A stretch of 34,550 nt of DNA from contig CAZHFK010000004.1 of assembly GCA_964531215.1 (NCBI GenBank), positions 1-34,550 on the forward strand, written 5' to 3'. Of this stretch, positions 3,051 to 21,009 are shown piece after piece. The notes beneath the pieces are model-generated. The model was not told where the DNA came from. It ran no database searches and saw only the letters and a list, made by a program, of their open reading frames with translations. Position numbers and translations under genes: made by a program. Source of the DNA: an uncultured Gammaproteobacteria bacterium (GTDB taxonomy: Bacteria; Patescibacteriota; Patescibacteriia; CAIXNZ01). The first letter of the stretch is position 1. The number at the start of each line of letters is the position of its first letter.

Positions 3051-3497
3051 TTAAGTTTCTCGTTCAATGGTTAAACCTATATTAGCTGAGACATCGTCGC
3101 TAAAAATAATATTAATATCATAATAACCAAGCTGCTTGATTGGCTGATCCAATTTAATAAACTCTGCAGGAATATCATAATTGCGATTTTTTAATTCTTG
3201 GGCAATATCAGCTTCTTTAATGGCAGCAAAAAGTGTTTTTTTATCATCAGCTTTAGCTTTAATGATAATTTTCAAATTATTAATTTTTTTTGCTAATTCC
3301 TTATATTGCTTTACTTTATTGGCTGTTTTTTTCTGTTGTTTCTGTTTTTTAAACTCAAGCTGGTTGATAACTGATTCAGTGGCAACTTTTACCAAACCTT
3401 GTGGTAATAAAAAATTACGAGCATAACCATCAGCCACTTCTTTAATTTCACCTGTTTGTCCTAAATTAGGCACTTTTTTTAATAAAACTACTTTCAT
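3051..3497 (-). CDS. rplI: 50S ribosomal protein L9
   Basis: MKVVLLKKVPNLGQTGEIKEVADGYARNFLLP signature. Confidence 0.98.
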   Translation of the reverse strand: MKVVLLKKVPNLGQTGEIKEVADGYARNFLLPQGLVKVATESVINQLEFKKQKQQKKTANKVKQYKELAKKINNLKIIIKAKADDKKTLFAAIKEADIAQELKNRNYDIPAEFIKLDQPIKQLGYYDINIIFSDDVSANIGLTIERET

Positions 3498-3609
3498 AAA
3501 TAAAAAAATTAAGCTATTAATCTTAATTCCCCCTTTAATATATTTTACATAAAAAAAAATGTATTGGCAAATTCTTGATAATTGCTAATTTCAAATTAAC
3601 AATTTCCAA

Positions 3610-3978
3610 TTATTTGCCAAATAAGCGACTTAAAAAACCGCCTTTTTCTTCTTCTTGCTCACTACTCCCAGCTCTTGCTTCTTGCATTATTAAATTATAA
3701 ATCCTTTGGGCTTCTTGCTTAACCAAATCCGAATCATAATCACCCGAATGAGCTTTTTGGCCTTGATAAGAAGCTTGCTTTTGATCAATATGCAAACTTA
3801 AAATTAACGGATCTTCAGAATTAATATACATATGAAACCGCGGATAAAAACCTGACTGGCCTAAACGACGAGAATAACTGCGTTGCTCAGCTCTGGGATC
3901 ACGCACTAAGCCATAACCGCAACGGCGAATTAATTGATCAGTCGGTATATTGAATTTTTGTTTAAAATTAAGGTTCAT
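3610..3978 (-). CDS. Hypothetical protein (start revised to MNLNFKQ)
   Basis: ORF with YPRFHMY/LHIDQ motif; ATG at 3978 overlaps the hicA-like stop (ATGA). Confidence 0.7.
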   Translation of the reverse strand: MNLNFKQKFNIPTDQLIRRCGYGLVRDPRAEQRSYSRRLGQSGFYPRFHMYINSEDPLILSLHIDQKQASYQGQKAHSGDYDSDLVKQEAQRIYNLIMQEARAGSSEQEEEKGGFLSRLFGK

Positions 3979-4220
3979 AATTCTTTTTTTATATCTTGCC
4001 AATTAACATTACTAATTTCTTCTATTTCTTTAATTACATAAAACAAAACATCTTTTCTTATTTTTACTGGCACTGTCACAGACTTATCATTTGCCGGCCA
4101 AATTATTTTATAATGACTACCATCACCACCCTTTTTATCTATAATAAAACCGAGTCGCTTTAACGCCTTGGTAAATTTTCTACGCTTAATTTCTCCTGGC
4201 AATTCGCTAAGCGAGGGCAT
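3975..4220 (-). CDS. hicA: HicA-family toxin (start revised to MPSLSELPG)
   Basis: 81 aa, basic; KALKRLGF...GGDGSHYKI...VTVP matches the HicA dsRBD-like pattern with catalytic His. Confidence 0.8.
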   Translation of the reverse strand: MPSLSELPGEIKRRKFTKALKRLGFIIDKKGGDGSHYKIIWPANDKSVTVPVKIRKDVLFYVIKEIEEISNVNWQDIKKEL

Positions 4221-4533
4221 AAGCTTCTTGATTGGCATTAACTTTATGCAATCCAGCTTTATTAGCAAATGAAGAAGGAATCTCAAAAGAGGTTAAAATC
4301 GCATCTTTGATCTTTTTATCTAATTCTTTTTCATTTTCTGCAGAGGTAATAATTGAACCATACTTGAAATTTGTACTAACAGCAATTACTTCGTCGTCTT
4401 TTCTTTCAAATTTAAAATTAATCGGTTCATAAATACGAAAATAATGCTCCAATTCATAAAGACCACTGGGCACATATTCTTTTCCCCACAATTTCTTCAA
4501 TAAAATATCTTTCATTTTTCTTGTAAATGACAT
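4207..4533 (-). CDS. HicB-like antitoxin (N-terminal partial RNase H-like domain only)
   Basis: EVIAVS...IITSAENEKELDKKIKDAI resembles the HicB N-domain; overlaps the hicA start; start 4533 or 4515. Confidence 0.6.
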   Translation of the reverse strand: MSFTRKMKDILLKKLWGKEYVPSGLYELEHYFRIYEPINFKFERKDDEVIAVSTNFKYGSIITSAENEKELDKKIKDAILTSFEIPSSFANKAGLHKVNANQEAYALA

Positions 4534-4541
4534 GATAATCA

Positions 4542-4571
4542 AAGTTAACACAATTTAACTATATATGTCAA
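4542..4571 (-). promoter_or_regulatory. sigma70-type promoter with overlapping palindrome (possible TA operator)
   Basis: Minus strand TTGACA (4571-4566), then TG-n-TAACTT; AGTTAA-n6-TTAACT at 4543-4560. Confidence 0.5.
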
Positions 4572-4658
4572 TTATATCATATTATTAAAAAAATATAACG
4601 TTAGGAATGACAATGTGGGACGAGGATAGATTGTTCTTTAAGTATATTAAGATTCATA

Positions 4659-5012
4659 TTACTTCTCTTTTTCAAATTTCACTTTAAAAATCGGCATATA
4701 TTTATTCCCCCATTCATCAGTAATCTCCACTGTTTCGCCTTTCATTAATTTATTAAAAGCCAAATCACTAATCATTTCGTTATCAGTATCTATATCCAGT
4801 TTCAAATCTTCCAATTTTTCAAAATCTTTAACCATTGACTGCTTGATAACATTTTCTATTTCTTTTTTTTGCTGTTTTAATGATTCCAATTCATCCTTAA
4901 TTTCCTGATATTCCTGATTATTGGTTAGTTCATCTTTATAAGCCTGACGAATTGCTTTTTGTTCTTCTTTAAATTGATTTATACGATCATAAATTTCCTG
5001 TATTTTTGACAT
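4659..5012 (-). CDS. Coiled-coil hypothetical protein
   Basis: 117-aa E/K/Q-rich ORF ending GETVEITDEWGNKYMPIFKVKFEK. Confidence 0.75.
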   Translation of the reverse strand: MSKIQEIYDRINQFKEEQKAIRQAYKDELTNNQEYQEIKDELESLKQQKKEIENVIKQSMVKDFEKLEDLKLDIDTDNEMISDLAFNKLMKGETVEITDEWGNKYMPIFKVKFEKEK

Positions 5013-5090
5013 GCTTTTCTAAATTAATCATTAAGATTAATTTATTATACACAAAATTATCAAACAGCTCAATTGTTGATAAATTATAAA

Positions 5091-5167
5091 GTTGTTATTG
5101 GTCTGGCTTGAACTATATAAAAATCCCAATTTTTAAACTTTTGAGTCATAGCCCATTCAATATCACA
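5091..5167. repeat. Direct repeat copy A (77 bp, orphan copy of the 3' end of the PEP/pyruvate-binding gene)
   Basis: Identical to 5659-5735; the adjacent 5084-5090 also encodes T-L-stop with synonymous codons. Confidence 0.95.
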
Positions 5168-5178
5168 TAACAGTCGTT

Positions 5179-5207
5179 ATGTCATCCTGAATATATGAAG
5201 GATCTAC
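5179..5207 (+). repeat. Left REP-like inverted repeat
   Basis: atgtcatcctga-atatat-gaaggatctac; reverse complement of 5614-5643 except for the loop. Confidence 0.85.
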
Positions 5208-5257
5208 GACCCCATTTAGACGAGAATCATTTATAATCTCTACCGGACATAACGACC

Positions 5258-16362: not shown

Positions 16363-17369
16363 CGCTCTTGATATTGTTTTTTATAATATTCCTGGTATTG
16401 GCCTGATTTAACCCTTTGCCACCAGTCTTGATTATTTTTATACCAATCAATTGTTTCTTTTAAGCCGGTTTGGAAATCAATCTTAGGCTGCCAACCGAGC
16501 TCATTTTTTGCTTTTGTAAAATCAATTGAATAACGCAAATCATGGCCTGGTCGGTCTTTAACATATTCAATCATTTCTTCACCTTTATCCATTAATTTTA
16601 AAATTTTTTTAGTCAGCTCAATATTTGTCATTTGCCTATTCCCTCCCAGACAATAAGTTTCACCGATCTTTCCGTTTTTAATAATCAAATCAACTCCCTT
16701 ATTATGATCATCTACATGAATCCAATCCCTGATATTTTCCCCTTCTCCGTATATGGGAATTTTTTTATCCTCAATTAAATTAGTTACAAACAAAGGAATT
16801 AATTTTTCCGGAAACTGATACGGCCCGTAATTATTGGAGCAATTGGAAATTGTGATCGGTAAACCATGTGTATGGTAATAAGCCCTGACCAAATGATCAG
16901 CAGCGGCTTTACTGGCAGAATAAGGGCTTCTGGGATCATAAGGAGTCTTTTCAGTAAAAGCCGGCTGGTCAATAGTCAATTCGCCAAAAACTTCATCAGT
17001 GGAAATATGGTGGAACCTCTTATGGCCATTATTTTTGGCTGAATCTAAAAGCACTCTGGTTCCCTCAACATTTGTTCTGATAAAATCACTACTACCCATA
17101 ACTGACCTGTCAACGTGCGTTTCTGCAGCAAAATGGACAATTAAATCTATATCCTGACTAACCAAATCATTAACCAAATCAAAATCACAAATATCGCCTT
17201 TAATAAATTTATAATTATTTTTATTCTCAATATCTTTTAAATTTTCCAAATTACCGGCATAAGTTAATTTATCCAAATTAACAATAAAATCATCCGGATA
17301 ATTTTTTAGCCAGTAATGAATAAAATTTGAGCCAATAAAACCGGCCCCGCCGGTAACTAATAATTTCAT
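16359..17369 (-). CDS. rmlB: dTDP-glucose 4,6-dehydratase
   Basis: VTGGAGFIGSNF, DKLTYAGN, AAETHVDRS, STDEVFG, YSASKA, DRPGHDLRY. Confidence 0.98.
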   Translation of the reverse strand: MKLLVTGGAGFIGSNFIHYWLKNYPDDFIVNLDKLTYAGNLENLKDIENKNNYKFIKGDICDFDLVNDLVSQDIDLIVHFAAETHVDRSVMGSSDFIRTNVEGTRVLLDSAKNNGHKRFHHISTDEVFGELTIDQPAFTEKTPYDPRSPYSASKAAADHLVRAYYHTHGLPITISNCSNNYGPYQFPEKLIPLFVTNLIEDKKIPIYGEGENIRDWIHVDDHNKGVDLIIKNGKIGETYCLGGNRQMTNIELTKKILKLMDKGEEMIEYVKDRPGHDLRYSIDFTKAKNELGWQPKIDFQTGLKETIDWYKNNQDWWQRVKSGQYQEYYKKQYQER

Positions 17370-17370
17370 A
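17321..17370. repeat. Direct repeat, left copy (first 16 codons of intact rmlB)
   Basis: 49/50 identical to 20353-20402. Confidence 0.95.
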
Positions 17371-17415
17371 AAATATTTTTTTATATATTTAATTTATCAG
17401 CTTTAATAAAATTAA

Positions 17416-18456
17416 TCAATGAAGCCAGAATAAATTTTTCAAATCCTTGCCCAGCTTATAAGCATTCGCGTGCGACAAAACTCCTAGATATGATTGTAGC
17501 GATTGCTCTAATCTTACCGCGCTAATTTTACCTTTTTTATATTCATCAATCCTTGCGCCCAATTTCTTAAAAATCCGCTTTTTTGTTTTAGATCTGATAA
17601 GCCGGTGATGCGGCCTTAAAACATAACCCAAAAAATCAATGCCTTGGGAAAATTTGCGGATGCTTATTTTATTTGGGTGCAGCCTCAAATCAAGATTGTT
17701 ATTTAAGAATTTTTTAATCTCTAAATTTATAAGCTTCAAATAAGCCGTATCGTCTGCGGCTATGACAAAATCATCAGTATAACGAACATAAAATTTAACT
17801 TTTAAAATCTGCTTTACGAATTGATCCAGCTCATTAAGATAAATGTTGGCAAATAGCTGGGAAGTTAAATTACCGATAGGAATACCTCGTCGCTCAAATA
17901 AGGCAGAGTAATTTGTTTGGTAGCTCCCAATAATCTCTTTAATCAGCCAAATAACGTCCCTGTCTTTAATTTTGCGGCAGATAATCTCCAGTAAAATTTT
18001 ATGATTCACCGTATCAAAAAATTTTTTAATGTCGCATTTTAATGCATAGCACGGCTTGTGTCCATTGTCGCTGACTTGGCGCAGTATTTTAACTAAAGCT
18101 TCCACTCCTTTATGCGTACCCTTACCAATACGGCAAGAGAAGGAATTCGGGATAAAAGCTACTTCAAAAACTGAATTTAGAACAGAAAAAATTGCATGAT
18201 GCAAAACCCTATCCCTGACTTCTGCCTTGTAAATATGCCGCTGTTTTGGGTCATTGATGTAAAATGAGGTATAGGGGCTATGCCCATATGTTTTGGCTGC
18301 TAATTCTTCGTGCAATTTAAAGATGTTTTCTTCCAAATTCCATTCAAACTCCAAAACGTCCTTTTTCTTTCTTTTGTCTTTTTTAAATTCGTCCCAAGCT
18401 GAAAATAAATTTTCCAAGGATATAATTTTATTAAATAATTCATTGTAAAAACGCAT
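17416..18456 (-). CDS. DGR reverse transcriptase
   Basis: RDRVLHHA, SCRIGKGTH, KCDIKKFFD, GIPIGNLTSQLFANIYL, YVRYTDDFV, GIDFLGY; 346 aa with no maturase/endonuclease domain. Confidence 0.96.
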   Translation of the reverse strand: MRFYNELFNKIISLENLFSAWDEFKKDKRKKKDVLEFEWNLEENIFKLHEELAAKTYGHSPYTSFYINDPKQRHIYKAEVRDRVLHHAIFSVLNSVFEVAFIPNSFSCRIGKGTHKGVEALVKILRQVSDNGHKPCYALKCDIKKFFDTVNHKILLEIICRKIKDRDVIWLIKEIIGSYQTNYSALFERRGIPIGNLTSQLFANIYLNELDQFVKQILKVKFYVRYTDDFVIAADDTAYLKLINLEIKKFLNNNLDLRLHPNKISIRKFSQGIDFLGYVLRPHHRLIRSKTKKRIFKKLGARIDEYKKGKISAVRLEQSLQSYLGVLSHANAYKLGKDLKNLFWLH

Positions 18457-18840
18457 ATGGAAATTTTAGAAGCGCCGATTTATAAAAAAATCGTTGATCT
18501 TTACAAAACCCTGCATCTTTACAGGAATTCAATCCCTAAACAGGACCGCTTTACTATCTGGCAAAGATGCGAAAATACAGCGATTGAGATTTTAAACCTA
18601 TTGCTTTTATGCGCGCAACTGTCCAAAGAGCAAAAACTCGCGGAAATGGAGAACTTAAGCCGCCAATTAAACATTTTGAGAGTCTTGCTAAGGGTGGCAA
18701 AAGAGGTCAGGACAATTGACAATAAAAAGTACGTCCATCTGCAGATGATAATTGATGAAATTGGCAGACAGCTGGGTGGCTGGATAAAGTCGGTTAAAAA
18801 TCCTAAAGAAAATACCCCCGCTAAGGGCGAGGGCATTTAG
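18457..18840 (+). CDS. avd: DGR accessory variability determinant (Avd-like four-helix bundle)
   Basis: 127 aa, basic; IPKQDRFTI..R, LRVLLRVA, IDEIGRQLGGWIK; adjacent to TR and RT. Confidence 0.88.
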   Translation: MEILEAPIYKKIVDLYKTLHLYRNSIPKQDRFTIWQRCENTAIEILNLLLLCAQLSKEQKLAEMENLSRQLNILRVLLRVAKEVRTIDNKKYVHLQMIIDEIGRQLGGWIKSVKNPKENTPAKGEGI

Positions 18841-19265
18841 ACTGGTAAGAAAAAGAAGTTCCCAACGAGCGCGACGCGCAGGTTTTGATTGGAGTTGTCA
18901 TTCCAGTTGTTGTTGACATTGAGCCCATTGGCATTGAAATTGCCGACATTGACTCGGTTGCCATTGGAGTCCAGCGAAAATTTACCCGCTTCCATCATTA
19001 ATCACTGAAAGTTGAAGTTTACGTCCTTTTCAGAATTATATCTTCTCCTCTCTGTATTTTATTTGGGAGCAAAATCTTAGATAAACCAAGACGTCTCCGC
19101 CAGAAACGGGCAAGAAGTTCTTTTTCTATCTTTAATTGCGCGCTACCTGGCTCCGTAAAGACAGGTACTCTAGCAATCCCTAAGATAGGGACTTGGCGAG
19201 CTTGAGCCTTAACCCAAACTACATTAGCCAAGCCCAGAACCAGAATCGGTTCTGGGCAAGCAGTC
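18810..19265 (-). ncRNA. Inferred TR-containing DGR RNA (ends approximate)
   Basis: Extended -10 at 19273-19281, 5' hairpin 19232-19257, TR, 3' stem-loop 18813-18835. Confidence 0.5.
18864..18979 (-). repeat. DGR template repeat (TR)
   Basis: 116 bp with 14 AAY codons in the target frame (SLDSNGNRVNVGNFNANGLNVNNNWNDNSNQNLRVALV). Confidence 0.96.
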
Positions 19266-19272
19266 CATCTTT

Positions 19273-19281
19273 ATTATAACA
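19273..19281 (-). promoter_or_regulatory. Extended -10 promoter for the TR(-RT) transcript
   Basis: TGTTATAAT on minus strand just after the target-gene terminator. Confidence 0.6.
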
Positions 19282-19282
19282 A

Positions 19283-19326
19283 AATTTAAAAAATCCCGCA
19301 TCATATTTTGCATACAATGCGGGATT
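19283..19326 (-). terminator. Hairpin/terminator downstream of DGR target gene
   Basis: aatcccgcat-15 nt-atgcgggatt followed by a T-run on the minus strand. Confidence 0.7.
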
Positions 19327-19400
19327 GCTATTTTCTCATTTTCTGAAATTGAATTCAAGATTCAATTTTCAAAAAATCAAGAAAGTCAATGACTCAAGGA

Positions 19401-20192
19401 TCAATTTTCAAACTTCCGAACGAGCGCGACGCGCAGGTAAGGATTGGAGTAGTCATACCAGCCGTCGTAGACATTGAGCCCATCGGCATCGAAATCGCCG
19501 ACACTGACTCGGTAGCCATAGGAGTCCAGCGAAATGCCCCGGTGCCACCAGTCTTCGGCGATCCGCTCTCCATTATTGACCATGTAAATGGTCAAAATGG
19601 TTTCGCTAAAGACAGCCTCATGGCAACGTTCGTACTCTTTGCCAAGTTTGTCAATCTCTCTTTCCTTCTGCTTCCAGTTCAGGTTAGCGAACTGGCCGCG
19701 AAAATTGATGAGATAATAGCCGGGTTGGGCTTTATGGGTCGCCCATTTGTCTTCCGAACGTTCCAGCCACCAGGTGTTATCTTTGTAAAAACAGGGTTGG
19801 CTGTTTTGGCTGGTTCCGCGCTTGTCGTGCTGTTCTCGCAAGCTCAGGCCAAAGCAGTAGACTACTCGCCAGTCCTCGCCGCTTTTGTTTTGCTCTGCGC
19901 AGGCGCGCAGAGTCGCCTCACTGTAGCGGATGGCCATATCCTTTGGATCTTCCTTTATCCAGGCTTTGGCCGCCTGGTCCGCGGAGATGACTTTGTTCTG
20001 GCCGAGGATGTCTATGGCCTGTTCCAAGGTCAGAGAAACGTCAGAGGTTTCAGTCTGCGGCTTCTTCTCCAGAAAATTCTGCAAAACCGCCACAAACTCT
20101 TCCGGATCATGCGTCCCATCCAGAATGCCCTTTCCGATCTGTGTTTCCAGACTCCAAATCCTGCTCCTTATTTTTTCACTTACTTTCGGCAT
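19401..20192 (-). CDS. DGR target (variable) protein with C-terminal VR, presumably C-type-lectin-like fold
   Basis: AAAAGGAGG SD; the last ~43 codons contain the VR; GC-rich; no signal peptide seen. Confidence 0.92.
   Translation of the reverse strand: MPKVSEKIRSRIWSLETQIGKGILDGTHDPEEFVAVLQNFLEKKPQTETSDVSLTLEQAIDILGQNKVISADQAAKAWIKEDPKDMAIRYSEATLRACAEQNKSGEDWRVVYCFGLSLREQHDKRGTSQNSQPCFYKDNTWWLERSEDKWATHKAQPGYYLINFRGQFANLNWKQKEREIDKLGKEYERCHEAVFSETILTIYMVNNGERIAEDWWHRGISLDSYGYRVSVGDFDADGLNVYDGWYDYSNPYLRVALVRKFEN
19419..19534 (-). repeat. DGR variable repeat (VR)
   Basis: 101/116 identical to TR; all 15 mismatches at TR adenines. Confidence 0.96.
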
Positions 20193-20285
20193 TGCTCATG
20201 CCCTCCTTTTGTTCTTGCCCATTACTCATGGGGTTAGAGGTGTCTTGTTATTCGGTTGATAAATTACACGCTATTTTCATATAAA

Positions 20286-20314
20286 ATTATAGCATATTAT
20301 CTTAAAAAAGTCAA
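20286..20314 (-). promoter_or_regulatory. sigma70 promoter of DGR target gene
   Basis: TTGACT-17 bp-TATAAT with TGn extension. Confidence 0.8.
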
Positions 20315-20352
20315 CCCACAACCTAGTAATTTAACTAACTTTATATAAAAAC

Positions 20353-20402
20353 TAAAATTTGAGCCAATAAAACCGGCACCGCCGGTAACTAATAATTTCA
20401 TA
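20353..20402 (-). pseudogene. Orphan rmlB 5' fragment (direct repeat, right copy)
   Basis: Encodes MKLLVTGGAGFIGSNF, then diverges and stops after 34 codons. Confidence 0.9.
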
Positions 20403-20405
20403 TAT

Positions 20406-20473
20406 TTTTAGCTTAGAGCTTCAAGCATTGGACTTTAGTCAAAAAACTCAAAGCTTATTACTCATAGCCCAGA
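20406..20473. repeat. Inverted array of degenerate heptamers
   Basis: ttttagc ttagagc ttcaagc ... actcaaa gcttatt actcata gcccaga. Confidence 0.5.
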
Positions 20474-20532
20474 ACCAATTATTATGTTAAAATATATGTA
20501 TAATTTATCATAAAAATTTATTAAAATCAATT

Positions 20533-21009
20533 ATGAAAATTCCCATTAGAAAAGGTTTTAGTTTTGGTCTGACCTCAGCTGTGATTACCACCTTGGGCAT
20601 TATAGTCGGCTTAAATGCTTCAACCCAATCAAAGGTAGCTGTTATTGGCGGTATTTTATCAATCGCCATTGCTGATGCTTTTGCCGATGCTCTTGGCATT
20701 CATATTGCCGAAGAATCAGAACTAAATAAAGAGACCAAATTCCAATGGGTAGCTGCTATATCTGCTTTTTTAACCAAGCTTGTTTTTGCTTTAACTTTTA
20801 TTTTGCCTATTTTGTTTTTAAGTGATGAACAAGCGATTATTGTCAGTTTAATTTGGGGGCTGGGACTATTAAGTATTTTTTCTTATTATTTGGCTAAAAA
20901 ACAAAAAATCCAGCCCTGGAAAGCCATTGCTGAACATGTTTTAATTGCCATTGCCGTAATTATAATCACGCATTTTGTCGGTCAATGGATTCGTCAATTT
21001 TTTATTTAA
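20533..21009 (+). CDS. VIT1/CCC1-like membrane protein
   Basis: FSFGLTSAVITTLG, IAIADAFADALGIHIAEESE, multiple TM segments. Confidence 0.78.
   Translation: MKIPIRKGFSFGLTSAVITTLGIIVGLNASTQSKVAVIGGILSIAIADAFADALGIHIAEESELNKETKFQWVAAISAFLTKLVFALTFILPILFLSDEQAIIVSLIWGLGLLSIFSYYLAKKQKIQPWKAIAEHVLIAIAVIIITHFVGQWIRQFFI

What the first reader, a model, noticed from the sequence alone, without database searches (positions are those of the whole stretch)
18421..18863. Inverted avd between TR and RT, head-to-head with RT at zero spacing (CATATG)
Seen: the RT start (CAT 18454-18456, minus) directly abuts the avd ATG (18457, plus), while TR and target are on the minus strand. In the BPP-1 prototype avd-TR-brt are co-oriented. 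Inference: a TR-RT transcript must cross avd in antisense, and any avd promoter or leader must lie inside RT coding sequence (a TATAAT is at 18421). The two RNAs would overlap, offering an antisense or transcriptional-interference control on mutagenesis. avd DNA may also double as the TR spacer RNA.
Basis: partly seen in the sequence, partly recalled or inferred. Interest (0 to 1): 0.8.

Follow-up and report, generated by a model that had tools for sequence, protein, structure and literature searches.

The report
Ordinary CPR-type DGR; template RNA rearranged
The backwards-facing avd gene is the normal, already published layout of diversity-generating retroelements in ultra-small (CPR) bacteria, but the work turned up a conserved folded RNA just upstream of the template repeat that may replace the usual downstream spacer RNA.

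Summary
RT (17416-18456, -) and avd (18457-18840, +) start back to back at CATATG. TR (18979-18856) and VR (19534-19411) lie on the minus strand.

The layout is not unusual. In 77 of 80 loci holding the closest RT relatives, avd sits inverted directly upstream of RT. Wu et al. 2018 already name this Architecture B3, "TR-(avd)-RT", found in 90% of their CPR set.

- **Antisense avd as spacer RNA:** it shows no conserved structure (0 predicted pairs).
- **An obligatory TR-RT transcript:** a strong terminator-like hairpin sits between TR and the avd stop codon.

Instead, a roughly 240-nt structured RNA domain lies immediately 5' of TR, behind a position-conserved -10 box. Across 37 pairs, 96% of cells are paired, against 45-50% in slid controls. 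One of its strands pairs with the 3' end of TR. A covariance model of its core hit 43 of 151 genomes of the class, and 42 of 53 hits lie 422-704 nt upstream of a DGR RT on the same strand. It has no Rfam match and did not turn up in my literature searches.

My boldest reading (inferred, probability about 0.45) is that this is a circular permutation of the Bordetella-phage DGR RNA.

The parts
17416..18456 (-). DGR reverse transcriptase gene (346 aa)
   Evidence: RVT_1 1.4e-23. 521 relatives were confirmed by tblastn in genome contigs; the best 80 are all Patescibacteria-type MAG records at 45-88% identity.
18457..18840 (+). avd (127 aa), inverted. Its start codon abuts the RT start codon.
   Evidence: bAvd PF22296 7.5e-18. 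NCBIfam NF033474 80.2 bits against a cut-off of 80. Homologues lie on the strand opposite to RT in 77 of 80 loci.
18454..18459 (.). CATATG junction of the two divergent start codons
   Evidence: Read directly. The spacing between homologous start positions has a median of 8 nt, and 59 of 71 loci fall within +/-30 nt. Spacing is -2 to 13 nt in the 27 loci with confident starts.
18421..18426 (+). TATAAT inside RT codons; candidate avd -10 box (not significant)
   Evidence: CTGAAA-16-TATAAT, 10 of 12 matches. The regional count of 11 is no higher than the shuffles (8.7 +/- 3.0).
18810..18838 (-). 29-nt hairpin (12 bp, -17.2 kcal/mol) followed by a U-rich tract to about 18803. It overlaps the avd stop codon. 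Read as a terminator of the TR RNA (and possibly of avd from the other side), or as an Avd-binding stem-loop.
   Evidence: Terminator-like by the scan. Across 65 TR-bearing loci, 55 have a hairpin of dG <= -10 within 70 nt after TR (control inside RT: 8 of 64). 31 of 65 also have >=5 U in the next 9 nt (control: 0 of 64).
18856..18979 (-). Template repeat (TR)
   Evidence: 124 nt, 86% identical to VR. 15 of 17 mismatches lie at TR adenines. It is the only TR/VR pair of this sequence in the 1.03-Mb genome.
18846..18863 (-). 3' end of TR (IMH*-like GGGAAC) plus a pyrimidine-rich flank; the 3' strand of long-range helix H7
   Evidence: 15 column pairs on 38 sequences are 73.2% paired, against 60.4% when shuffled (0 of 500) and 38-52% when slid. 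Covariation is 0.371 against 0.11-0.20.
18980..19217 (-). Conserved structured RNA domain immediately 5' of TR. It has hairpins H1 and H3 with mostly UACG loops, a purine-rich strand at about 19131-19114, the long-range helix H4 (19113-19102 with 18993-18982), hairpins H5 and H6, and an A-rich single-stranded motif.
   Evidence: Iterated nhmmer gives a single hit in 59 of 80 loci plus the window (19216-18962), always next to TR. RNAalifold finds compensatory changes in 28 of 29 pairs. 37 pairs are 96.0% paired against 66.4% shuffled (0 of 500) and 45-50% slid. Covariance model R1 scores 104.2 bits at 18979-19129. No Rfam match at E <= 1.
19232..19257 (-). 26-nt perfect hairpin inserted in the RNA leader. 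It is absent from the 88%-identical relative L001.
   Evidence: Comparison. Single copy in the genome.
19273..19281 (-). Extended -10 box TGtTATAAT; candidate promoter of the TR RNA
   Evidence: Read. 29 of 40 copies have a hexamer matching >=5 of 6 positions, 18-28 nt upstream of model position 1, often preceded by TG. The script missed the window's own box because of the 26-nt insertion.
19292..19326 (-). Terminator-like hairpin (15 pairs plus a T-tract) after the target gene
19401..20192 (-). DGR target gene (263 aa); VR at 19411-19534
   Evidence: No Pfam or NCBIfam family. AlphaFold model has pLDDT 89.8. The best Foldseek matches are weak (E 0.06, TM 0.64 over 110 columns) but are C-type-lectin-like domains.
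20286..20314 (-). Best sigma-70-like site in the region (TTGACT-17-TATAAT with TG), upstream of the target gene
   Evidence: 11 of 12 matches.
20353..20401 (-). Truncated duplicate of the first 16 codons of rfbB. Together with 17321-17369 it brackets the whole cassette.
   Evidence: spacing 3032. The same flanking repeat occurs in L001. Empty sites occur in 5 related genomes.

Best explanation
This is an ordinary member of the CPR/Patescibacteria class of diversity-generating retroelements, with the published cassette Architecture B3: target(VR) - TR - (avd, reverse strand) - RT. The inverted avd and the near-zero spacing between the avd and RT start codons are typical of this class.

I read the locus as four transcription units.
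1. **Target gene.** It has its own promoter-like site and a terminator-like hairpin.
2. **A self-contained non-coding 'TR RNA' gene.** It comprises an extended -10 box, a roughly 240-nt structured 5' domain, TR, and a terminator-like hairpin at the avd stop codon.
3. **avd.**
4. **RT.** avd and RT form a divergent pair whose promoters and leaders must lie inside each other's first codons.

The accessory RNA that RT-Avd needs is supplied by the 5' domain, not by antisense avd. A long-range helix (H4) closes 2 nt before TR. A purine-rich strand just upstream of H4 pairs with the 3' end of TR (H7).

**Shown:** the gene identities, the A-biased TR/VR pair, the recurrence of the layout, the structured 5' domain and its linkage to DGR RTs, the hairpin, and the absence of conserved structure in antisense avd.

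**Inferred:** where transcripts start and stop, that the 5' domain binds RT-Avd and positions priming, and how RT itself is transcribed.
For: **Layout**
- avd is inverted next to RT in 77 of 80 loci. The three exceptions are two contig ends (L007, L075) and L048, which has no avd.
- TR lies on the RT strand just beyond the avd 3' end in 64 loci plus the window, at -29 to +104 nt, with a majority of mismatches at TR adenines.
- Wu et al. 2018 describe B3 = TR-(avd)-RT in 90% of their CPR set.
- A second DGR on contig C3 of the same genome has the same order. Its RNA core ends exactly at the TR start.

**5' domain**
- H7 is supported.
- In an even sample of 151 genomes of the class, model R1 hit 43 genomes and the RT protein hit 52. 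39 genomes have both. 42 of 53 RNA hits lie 422-704 nt (median 549) upstream of an RT match on the same contig and strand.

**Independent transcription unit**
- A position-conserved -10 box occurs in 29 of 40 copies.
- Hairpin and U-tract statistics are, and the terminator scan.
- In L047 the RNA-TR unit is flipped while avd and RT stay head to head.

**Antisense avd**
- RNAalifold predicts 0 pairs.
Against: - There is no RNA evidence of any kind, so every transcript boundary is predicted from sequence.
- Only 31 of 65 hairpins meet both terminator criteria. Handa et al. (bioRxiv 10.1101/2023.10.23.563531, section 10 read in full) interpret stem-loops just downstream of TR as Avd-binding elements. 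The hairpin may therefore not terminate transcription, and read-through into antisense avd and RT remains possible.
- No convincing RT promoter was found inside avd. The conserved bases there are explained by the Avd N-terminal motif.
- H5 and H6 were picked by scanning the same alignment on which they were then counted. H7 is much weaker than H1-H4, and its alignment is imperfect.
- 13 RT-positive genomes had no RNA hit, and 4 RNA-positive genomes had no RT match at E <= 1e-30.
- RNAalifold on a coding region is a blunt test, so a short element inside antisense avd could be missed.
Confidence: 0.7

Rival explanations
1. TR and RT are made as one transcript that crosses avd in antisense. The antisense-avd stretch serves as the spacer RNA, and sense/antisense overlap throttles mutagenesis.
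For: - TR and RT are co-oriented with only avd between them.
- About half of the post-TR hairpins lack a clear U-tract (34 of 65 fail the double criterion), so read-through is conceivable.
- No independent RT promoter could be shown.
Against: - Antisense avd shows 0 predicted conserved pairs across 19 sequences, whereas the 5' side of TR carries a strongly covarying domain.
- TR has its own position-conserved -10 box.
- A hairpin with a U-tract sits at the avd stop codon in the window.
- In L047 the TR RNA is on the strand opposite to RT, which makes a TR-RT cotranscript impossible there.
Confidence: 0.15
2. The hairpin after TR is mainly the Avd-binding stem-loop of the DGR RNA, as at Sp3-33 in the Bordetella phage, and not a terminator. 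The RNA extends further 3'.
For: - The position is the same as in BPP-1, immediately after TR. Handa et al. report such stem-loops in 207 of 278 Avd-encoding DGRs, CPR included.
- The window's stem has 12 bp.
Against: - Many copies have the A-tract / GC stem / U-tract form of bidirectional intrinsic terminators, and they lie between convergent units.
- Their loops are not the UNCG type. It is the 5' hairpins H1 and H3 that carry UACG loops (20 and 21 of 42), like the BPP-1 Avd-binding loop read.
- The two roles are not mutually exclusive.
Confidence: 0.3
3. The conserved 5' domain has nothing to do with reverse transcription. It could be a 3'-UTR element of the target gene, or an unrelated small RNA that travels with the cassette.
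For: It lies between the target gene and TR. Its function has not been tested.
Against: - It always abuts TR. H4 ends 2 nt before TR in the window, and the core ends at the base before TR in the second DGR.
- It stays with TR when the unit is flipped (L047) and when avd is missing (L048).
- One of its strands covaries with the 3' end of TR.
- A terminator-like hairpin and a -10 box separate it from the target gene.
Confidence: 0.05
4. The CATATG junction is an assembly artefact.
For: The source is a metagenome-type assembly of 71 contigs. No reads could be laid on it.
Against: The same junction type occurs in 77 of 80 independent assemblies and in a paralogous DGR in the same genome.
Confidence: 0.01

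Closest known systems
Architecture B3 DGRs of CPR bacteria (Wu et al. 2018, NAR 46:11, PMC5758913)
   Same: The order and orientation are identical: target, TR, avd on the reverse strand, RT. The host group is the same, since the nearest RT relatives are Patescibacteria MAGs.
   Different: Nothing in the gene layout differs. In the parts of the paper I read (section 22 in full, plus passages), it does not mention the abutting start codons, a structured domain 5' of TR, or a terminator between TR and avd. Its supplementary tables could not be opened.
Bordetella phage BPP-1 DGR (Architecture B1: mtd - avd - TR - spacer - brt)
   Same: - The proteins are the same (RT, Avd), as are the A-specific TR-to-VR transfer and the GC-rich end of TR.
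- By my inference the RNA elements occur in the same order as described by Handa et al.: a UACG-capped stem-loop, a strand pairing with the 3' end of TR, a duplex strand, a small stem-loop, an A-rich single strand, a longer stem-loop, and a duplex partner lying just 5' of TR.
   Different: - In BPP-1 avd is co-oriented and upstream of TR, and the 140-nt spacer lies downstream of TR (read from AY029185).
- Here avd is inverted and downstream, the structured RNA lies upstream of TR, and nothing conserved lies downstream except one hairpin.
Rfam RT-10 motif (Weinberg et al. 2017, PMC5737381, section 22 read in full): the RNA between TR and brt of BPP-1
   Same: It is a structured RNA next to a DGR template, proposed to act in priming.
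   Different: Neither RT-10 nor any other of the 4227 Rfam families matches window 17000-20600 at E <= 1. The element also lies on the other side of TR.
Retron msr-msd non-coding RNA
   Same: This comparison rests on recalled knowledge of retrons. The topology is shared: a structured, non-templating part lies 5' of the template, and a strand of it pairs with the 3' end of the template next to where cDNA synthesis starts.
   Different: The RT clade differs, retrons have no TR/VR pair and no Avd, and no sequence or Rfam similarity was found. The comparison is an analogy only.

Membership tests
Diversity-generating retroelement (DGR) | Reverse transcriptase gene next to a template repeat | tested here: met
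   RVT_1 1.4e-23. The RT lies 400 nt from TR. The RT contains YTDD and a ...TSQLFANIYL... stretch. That these motifs are typical of DGR RTs is recalled, not tested.
Diversity-generating retroelement (DGR) | TR/VR repeat pair whose differences fall at TR adenines | tested here: met
   124 nt, 86% identical, with 15 of 17 mismatches at TR adenines.
Diversity-generating retroelement (DGR) | VR at the 3' end of a target ORF, usually in a C-type-lectin-like fold | tested here: met
   VR 19411-19534 ends 10 nt before the stop of ORF 19401-20192. The fold evidence is weak: Foldseek's best match has E 0.06 and TM 0.64, but the top matches are C-type-lectin-like.
Diversity-generating retroelement (DGR) | IMH / IMH* pair: a GC-rich identical stretch at the 3' end of VR and TR, followed by divergence | tested here: met
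   A 20-nt GC-rich stretch is identical in both repeats. It is followed by fixed non-A differences, GGGAAC in TR against CGGAAG in VR. The same C/G difference recurs in relatives. This is sequence evidence only.
Diversity-generating retroelement (DGR) | Ongoing diversification of VR | not testable with these tools
   No sequencing run was listed for the stretch, so no reads were laid.
Architecture B3 (Wu et al. 2018) | Core order TR - avd - RT, with avd on the reverse strand and no other accessory gene | tested here: met
   The definition was read in the Fig. 5 legend.
BPP-1-type DGR RNA (avd 3' end - TR - downstream spacer; Rfam RT-10) | Conserved structured spacer RNA between TR and RT | tested here: not met
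   0 predicted pairs in 160 nt downstream of the hairpin across 19 sequences. No Rfam hit.
BPP-1-type DGR RNA (avd 3' end - TR - downstream spacer; Rfam RT-10) | Stem-loop immediately 3' of TR (the Avd-binding element) | tested here: inconclusive
   A hairpin is present, but it looks like a terminator and lacks a UNCG loop.
BPP-1-type DGR RNA (avd 3' end - TR - downstream spacer; Rfam RT-10) | Duplex between the bases just 5' of TR and a distal strand (the 'cPRT Stop'), and a duplex between the 3' end of TR and a priming strand | tested here: inconclusive
   Helices with these positions relative to TR exist and covary: H4 and H7. Their partner strands lie upstream of TR, not downstream. Functional equivalence is inferred.
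Intrinsic (rho-independent) terminator | GC-rich hairpin followed by a U-tract | tested here: met
   Site 18828-18814 with tail ATTTTCTTTA. The full 12-bp stem has -17.2 kcal/mol. Termination itself was not tested.

The most novel reading that the evidence does not exclude
In the CPR class of DGRs the functional DGR RNA is a circular permutation of the Bordetella-phage RNA. The elements that lie downstream of TR in BPP-1 lie upstream of TR here, in the same order. They close on TR through helix H4 and reach round to the 3' end of TR through helix H7, which gives a retron-like topology.

The BPP-1 elements in question are the UNCG-capped Avd-binding stem-loop, the priming strand, the stop-duplex strand, a small stem-loop, the A-rich 'thumb ring' strand, and the RT-binding stem-loop.

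This would free the DNA downstream of TR from any RNA role. It would explain how avd could come to sit there inverted, why the TR RNA can be a separate and even flippable gene, and why surveys that fold 100 nt downstream of TR would miss the real RNA partner in the largest DGR clade.
Probability: 0.45. Interest if true: 0.75.

Novelty: new member of a known kind. Interest (0 to 1): 0.5.

Why it matters
The finding as handed over does not matter much. It rediscovers the standard CPR cassette layout.

The by-product could matter to people who study DGR mechanism. All mechanistic and structural knowledge of DGR RNA comes from one phage element, whose spacer lies downstream of TR. By a review I read (PMC8632793, passages), CPR bacteria hold about 40% of all distinct DGRs.

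If these elements keep their RT/Avd-binding RNA upstream of TR as a separate small gene, three things follow:
- Annotation pipelines and comparative RNA surveys should look there.
- The minimal unit for reconstitution or engineering becomes clear: an RNA gene of about 450 nt plus two small proteins.
- The priming mechanism can be tested on a naturally permuted RNA.

The covariance model and alignments made here give concrete helices to mutate. The cassette-sized insertion with empty sites in relatives also shows that these DGRs move as complete units.

Tried and rejected
- **Expression data.** The look-up of sequencing runs (kind rna) on 17380-20300 listed no RNA holder. Read laying was therefore not used, and no statement on expression is made.
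- **Rfam.** No family matched at E <= 1 on 17000-20600.
- **Full-length covariance model.** As the tool message suggested, I aligned only the core (A8) and built R1 with 124 positions and 16 pairs. H6 could not go into R1, because MAFFT places its 3' strand in different columns for the two subgroups.
- **Promoters for RT and avd.**
  - The junction sequences of 27 loci show only AT-rich gaps, plus bases explained by the conserved N-terminal peptides. I could not separate promoter signal from coding constraint and make no claim.
  - I first considered 'leaderless mRNAs because there is no Shine-Dalgarno'. I dropped this because only 3 of 26 long ORFs in the window have an SD-like motif (one of the 26 is the spurious ORF antisense to the target). 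Lack of SD is normal here.
- **Target fold.** Foldseek against the PDB gave no match at E <= 0.001. pdb_via_wide was tried three times and the machine was busy each time, so it never ran.
- **Literature.**
  - Seven searches found no description of a structured RNA 5' of TR in CPR DGRs, nor of abutting avd/RT start codons.
  - Paul et al. 2017 (Nat Microbiol), the main CPR DGR paper, is not held and could bear on both points.
  - Supplementary tables of Wu et al. 2018 and Handa et al. were not seen.
  - The Minerva preprint mentions DGRs only in passing.
  - The Mob DNA review, Roux 2021, Paul 2015 and MyDGR were checked by passages only and added nothing on orientation or the RNA.
- **Rows dropped.**
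  - TR/VR was not found by my blast routine in 9 avd-bearing loci, several of them at contig ends. 4 more gave repeats shorter than 90 nt and were left out of the 65.
  - A4 uses only the 42 near-full-length copies out of 60 nhmmer hits.
  - A5 uses the 38 of those that have a TR call.
  - A8 drops L067.
  - The antisense-avd test used 19 close relatives only.
Full report
**1. What is there**

The window carries a complete diversity-generating retroelement on the minus strand, with one gene inverted.
- The 346-aa ORF 17416-18456 (-) is a reverse transcriptase (RVT_1, 1.4e-23).
- The 127-aa ORF 18457-18840 (+) is Avd. It matches bAvd at 7.5e-18 and passes the NCBIfam equivalog NF033474 at 80.2 bits against a cut-off of 80.
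- A 124-nt repeat pair, 18856-18979 and 19411-19534, is 86% identical. 15 of its 17 mismatches fall on adenines of the first copy read on the minus strand. So 18979-18856 is TR and 19534-19411 is VR.
- VR lies at the 3' end of a 263-aa ORF, 19401-20192 (-). This ORF has no Pfam or NCBIfam family.
- An AlphaFold model of the ORF built on 44 homologues has pLDDT 89.8. Its best PDB matches are weak (E 0.06, TM 0.64 over 110 columns) but are C-type-lectin-like domains.
- The RT start (CAT at 18454-18456) and the avd start (ATG at 18457-18459) abut exactly, and TATAAT stands at 18421-18426.

**2. How unusual the layout is**

I took the 80 best loci encoding relatives of the RT. They came from one genome per species of GTDB, were chosen among 521 relatives confirmed by tblastn, and are all Patescibacteria-type MAG records at 45-88% identity.
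- A phmmer search with the window's Avd against all six-frame ORFs of these loci found a homologue on the strand opposite to RT, directly upstream of it, in 77 of 80.
- Of the three without, L007 and L075 have RT at the contig end. L048 has TR directly upstream of RT with no avd.
- I measured the distance between the codons homologous to the two start codons. This does not depend on start-codon choice. Its median is 8 nt, and 59 of 71 measurable loci fall within +/-30 nt.
- In the 27 loci with confident starts the gap is -2 to 13 nt.
- In 64 loci plus the window, a TR of >=90 nt lies on the RT strand just beyond the 3' end of avd, at -29 to +104 nt. In each, most mismatches are at TR adenines.
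- A second DGR on contig C3 of the same genome (RT 56% identical) has the same order.

**3. What is already published**

Wu et al. 2018 (PMC5758913; section 22 and the Fig. 5 legend read in full) define Architecture B3 as 'TR-(avd)-RT', with parentheses marking the reverse strand. [quoted passage not shown] They also remark that components on different strands require at least two transcription units.

That criterion is met.

**4. Does a TR-RT transcript have to cross avd?**

Several observations argue that TR belongs to its own small gene.

- **The hairpin after TR.**
  - Seventeen nt after the end of TR/VR homology there is a 12-bp, -17.2 kcal/mol hairpin (18838-18810, minus strand). It overlaps the avd stop codon and is followed by a U-rich tract. 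The terminator scan picks it up.
  - Across the 65 TR-bearing sequences, 55 have a hairpin of dG <= -10 within 70 nt after TR (mean -15.1). A same-sized control segment inside RT gives 8 of 64 (mean -5.7).
  - 31 of 65 also have >=5 U in the next 9 nt, against 0 of 64 controls.
  - Many copies have an A-tract before the stem and a U-tract after it, the form of bidirectional terminators between convergent genes.
- **The target gene's own terminator.** A 15-pair terminator-like hairpin follows the target gene at 19326-19292.
- **A -10 box for the RNA.**
  - Behind that terminator, a -10-like hexamer, often with an upstream TG, lies at a fixed distance from the conserved RNA described in section 5.
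  - In 29 of 40 copies, a hexamer matching >=5 of 6 positions lies 18-28 nt upstream of model position 1 (modes at 22 and 25 nt).
  - In the window the box is TGtTATAAT at 19281-19273. It is followed by a 26-nt perfect hairpin (19257-19232) that the 88%-identical relative L001 lacks and that is unique in the genome.
- **The flipped unit in L047.** There the conserved RNA and TR lie on the avd strand, opposite to RT, while avd and RT remain head to head.

So the conserved core is the divergent avd/RT pair, and the TR RNA behaves as a separate module.

None of this is transcript evidence. Read-through of the hairpin into RT cannot be excluded. I found no convincing promoter for RT inside avd.

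**5. Where the accessory RNA is**

*The region upstream of TR*
- The roughly 250 nt upstream of TR are conserved at the nucleotide level among loci whose RTs share only about 60% identity.
- Iterated nhmmer, starting from 22 sequences, found one hit in each of 59 of the 80 loci and in the window (19216-18962, minus). Every hit abuts TR.
- RNAalifold on 22 sequences predicts 40 pairs, 30 with compensatory changes. On 42 near-full-length copies it predicts 29 pairs, 28 with compensatory changes.
- A six-helix structure of 37 pairs is 96.0% paired. Shuffled partners give 66.4% (0 of 500 reach the observed value) and partners slid by 1-3 columns give 45-50%. The covariation score is 0.793 against 0.12-0.18.
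- Caveat: helices H5 and H6 were chosen by scanning this same alignment.

*Elements of the domain, from 5' to 3'*
1. Hairpin H1.
2. Hairpin H2/H3. The loops of H1 and H3 are UACG in 21 and 20 of 42 copies.
3. A purine-rich single strand.
4. The 5' strand of a 12-bp long-range helix H4.
5. A small hairpin H5.
6. A conserved A-rich single strand (CAAAUAAAAUACAG or a close variant).
7. Hairpin H6.
8. The 3' strand of H4, which ends 2 nt before TR in the window (18993-18982; TR starts at 18979).

*Pairing with the 3' end of TR (H7)*
- The purine-rich strand (about 19131-19114) pairs with the 3' end of TR and the pyrimidine-rich bases beyond it (18863-18846).
- 15 column pairs on 38 sequences are 73.2% paired, against 60.4% when shuffled (0 of 500) and 38-52% when slid. 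Covariation is 0.371 against 0.11-0.20.
- This helix is less well supported than H1-H4.
- It covers the fixed non-A differences between TR and VR, GGAAC against GGAAG. That fits cDNA synthesis starting 5' of it.

*The region downstream of TR*
- The 160 nt of antisense avd beyond the hairpin give 0 predicted pairs across 19 sequences.

**6. Independent sample**

A covariance model of the core (R1: 124 positions, 16 pairs) was run on 151 genomes drawn evenly from the class, the window's own genome included.
- It hit 43 genomes with 53 hits at E <= 0.001.
- The RT protein hit 52 of the same 151 at E <= 1e-30. 39 genomes have both, 4 have the RNA only, and 13 have RT only.
- 42 of the 53 RNA hits have an RT match on the same contig and strand, 422-704 nt downstream (median 549). 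That is the room needed for TR, the hairpin and an inverted avd.
- Of the other 11 hits, one (G019) has an RT match on the same contig and strand but 3655 nt downstream. The other 10 have no RT match on their contig at E <= 1e-30, and some lie near contig ends.
- In the window's genome, R1 scores 104.2 bits at 18979-19129. It scores 35.4 bits (E 6e-5) in the second DGR, where the hit ends at the base before that element's TR.
- No Rfam family matches the region at E <= 1. This includes the RT-1 to RT-19 motifs of Weinberg et al. 2017, of which RT-10 is the BPP-1 spacer.

**7. Comparison with the Bordetella phage RNA (inference)**

Handa et al. (bioRxiv 10.1101/2023.10.23.563531; sections 10 and 19 read in full, other passages) describe the following, in order, downstream of TR:
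1. An Avd-binding stem-loop capped by a UNCG tetraloop (Sp3-33).
2. The priming strand with A56, which pairs with the 3' end of TR.
3. A strand (Sp58-70) that forms the 'cPRT Stop' duplex with the bases just 5' of TR.
4. A tiny stem-loop.
5. Two adenosines.
6. A 13-nt single-stranded 'Thumb Ring'.
7. A long RT-binding stem-loop.

I read the BPP-1 sequence and could place these elements, including the C(UACG)G loop.

The CPR domain shows the same succession: UACG-capped H3, the strand pairing with the 3' end of TR, the H4 5' strand, H5, the A-rich single strand, and H6. The H4 partner lies just 5' of TR. The difference is that the whole block lies upstream of TR instead of downstream.

That is the pattern of a circular permutation. 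It gives a retron-like topology, a point that rests on recalled knowledge of retrons. I put it at about 0.45. It rests on element order and positions, not on any detectable sequence homology or experiment.

For their cross-phylum survey, Handa et al. folded 40 nt upstream of TR joined to 100 nt downstream. That design would not see this domain.

**8. Side observations**

*The cassette is an insertion*
- Its ends are marked by a 49-nt direct repeat with one mismatch, made of the first 16 codons of rfbB: 17321-17369 (the real gene start) and 20353-20401 (a truncated copy).
- The repeat is also present, more decayed, in L001.
- In five related genomes, including one of the same genus, rfbB starts 55-145 nt from the VIT-family gene that flanks the cassette in the window, with nothing in between.
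- The cassette is therefore gained or lost as a unit of about 3 kb. rfbB now lies 46 nt downstream of RT on the same strand.

*Shine-Dalgarno usage*
- Only 3 of 26 long ORFs in the window have a Shine-Dalgarno-like motif. The lack of room for one at the junction is therefore unremarkable.

**9. Verdict**

- The finding as written is a correct observation of a known, class-typical layout.
- Two of its three mechanistic inferences are not supported: the obligatory antisense-crossing transcript, and avd doubling as spacer RNA.
- The third holds by logic but is untested: promoters must lie inside the partner's coding sequence, so 5' interference between avd and RT is possible.
- The real interest lies outside the given coordinates, in the structured RNA domain 5' of TR. 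It is well supported as a structure and as a DGR-linked element. I did not find it described, but Paul et al. 2017 and several supplements could not be read.

Noticed in passing
window 17321-17369 and 20353-20401; loci L084, L085, L087, L088, L089 (empty sites); L001 2106-2154 and 5087-5135: The whole DGR cassette (about 3 kb) is bracketed by a 49-nt direct repeat of the first 16 codons of rfbB. Five related genomes have rfbB and the VIT-family gene adjacent with no DGR between them. The cassette was therefore inserted, or is lost, as a unit. rfbB now lies 46 nt downstream of RT on the same strand.
   Followed up: yes
G000 contig C3, locus L094 3343-5239: The same genome holds a second DGR (RT 56% identical) with the same B3 layout: VR 3343-3465, RNA core 3599-3739, TR 3740-3862, inverted avd about 3887-4219, and RT 4244-5239.
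   Followed up: partly
window 19232-19257 (-): A 26-nt perfect hairpin is inserted between the -10 box and the conserved RNA domain. It is absent from the 88%-identical relative L001 and is single-copy in the genome. Its effect on the RNA is unknown.
   Followed up: partly
L047 3263-4072; L048 3330-4000: These are variants of the class. In L047 the RNA domain and TR are on the avd strand, flipped relative to RT, with two VRs elsewhere. In L048 the RNA domain and TR lie directly upstream of RT with no avd.
   Followed up: partly
whole window: Only 3 of 26 ORFs of >=150 aa have a GGAG/GAGG/AGGA motif 4-20 nt upstream of the start. This organism seems to initiate translation mostly without a Shine-Dalgarno sequence.
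   Followed up: no
L001 3654-4018: The avd of the closest relative (Uhrbacteria MAG) matches in two overlapping ORF pieces, 3821-4018 and 3654-3869. This suggests a frameshift or a sequencing error in that record.
   Followed up: no
genomes G002, G091, G132, G142: The RNA core model hits these four genomes, but no RT match at E <= 1e-30 was found there. They may hold orphan or degraded TR RNA genes, RTs on unassembled contigs, or more divergent RTs.
   Followed up: no
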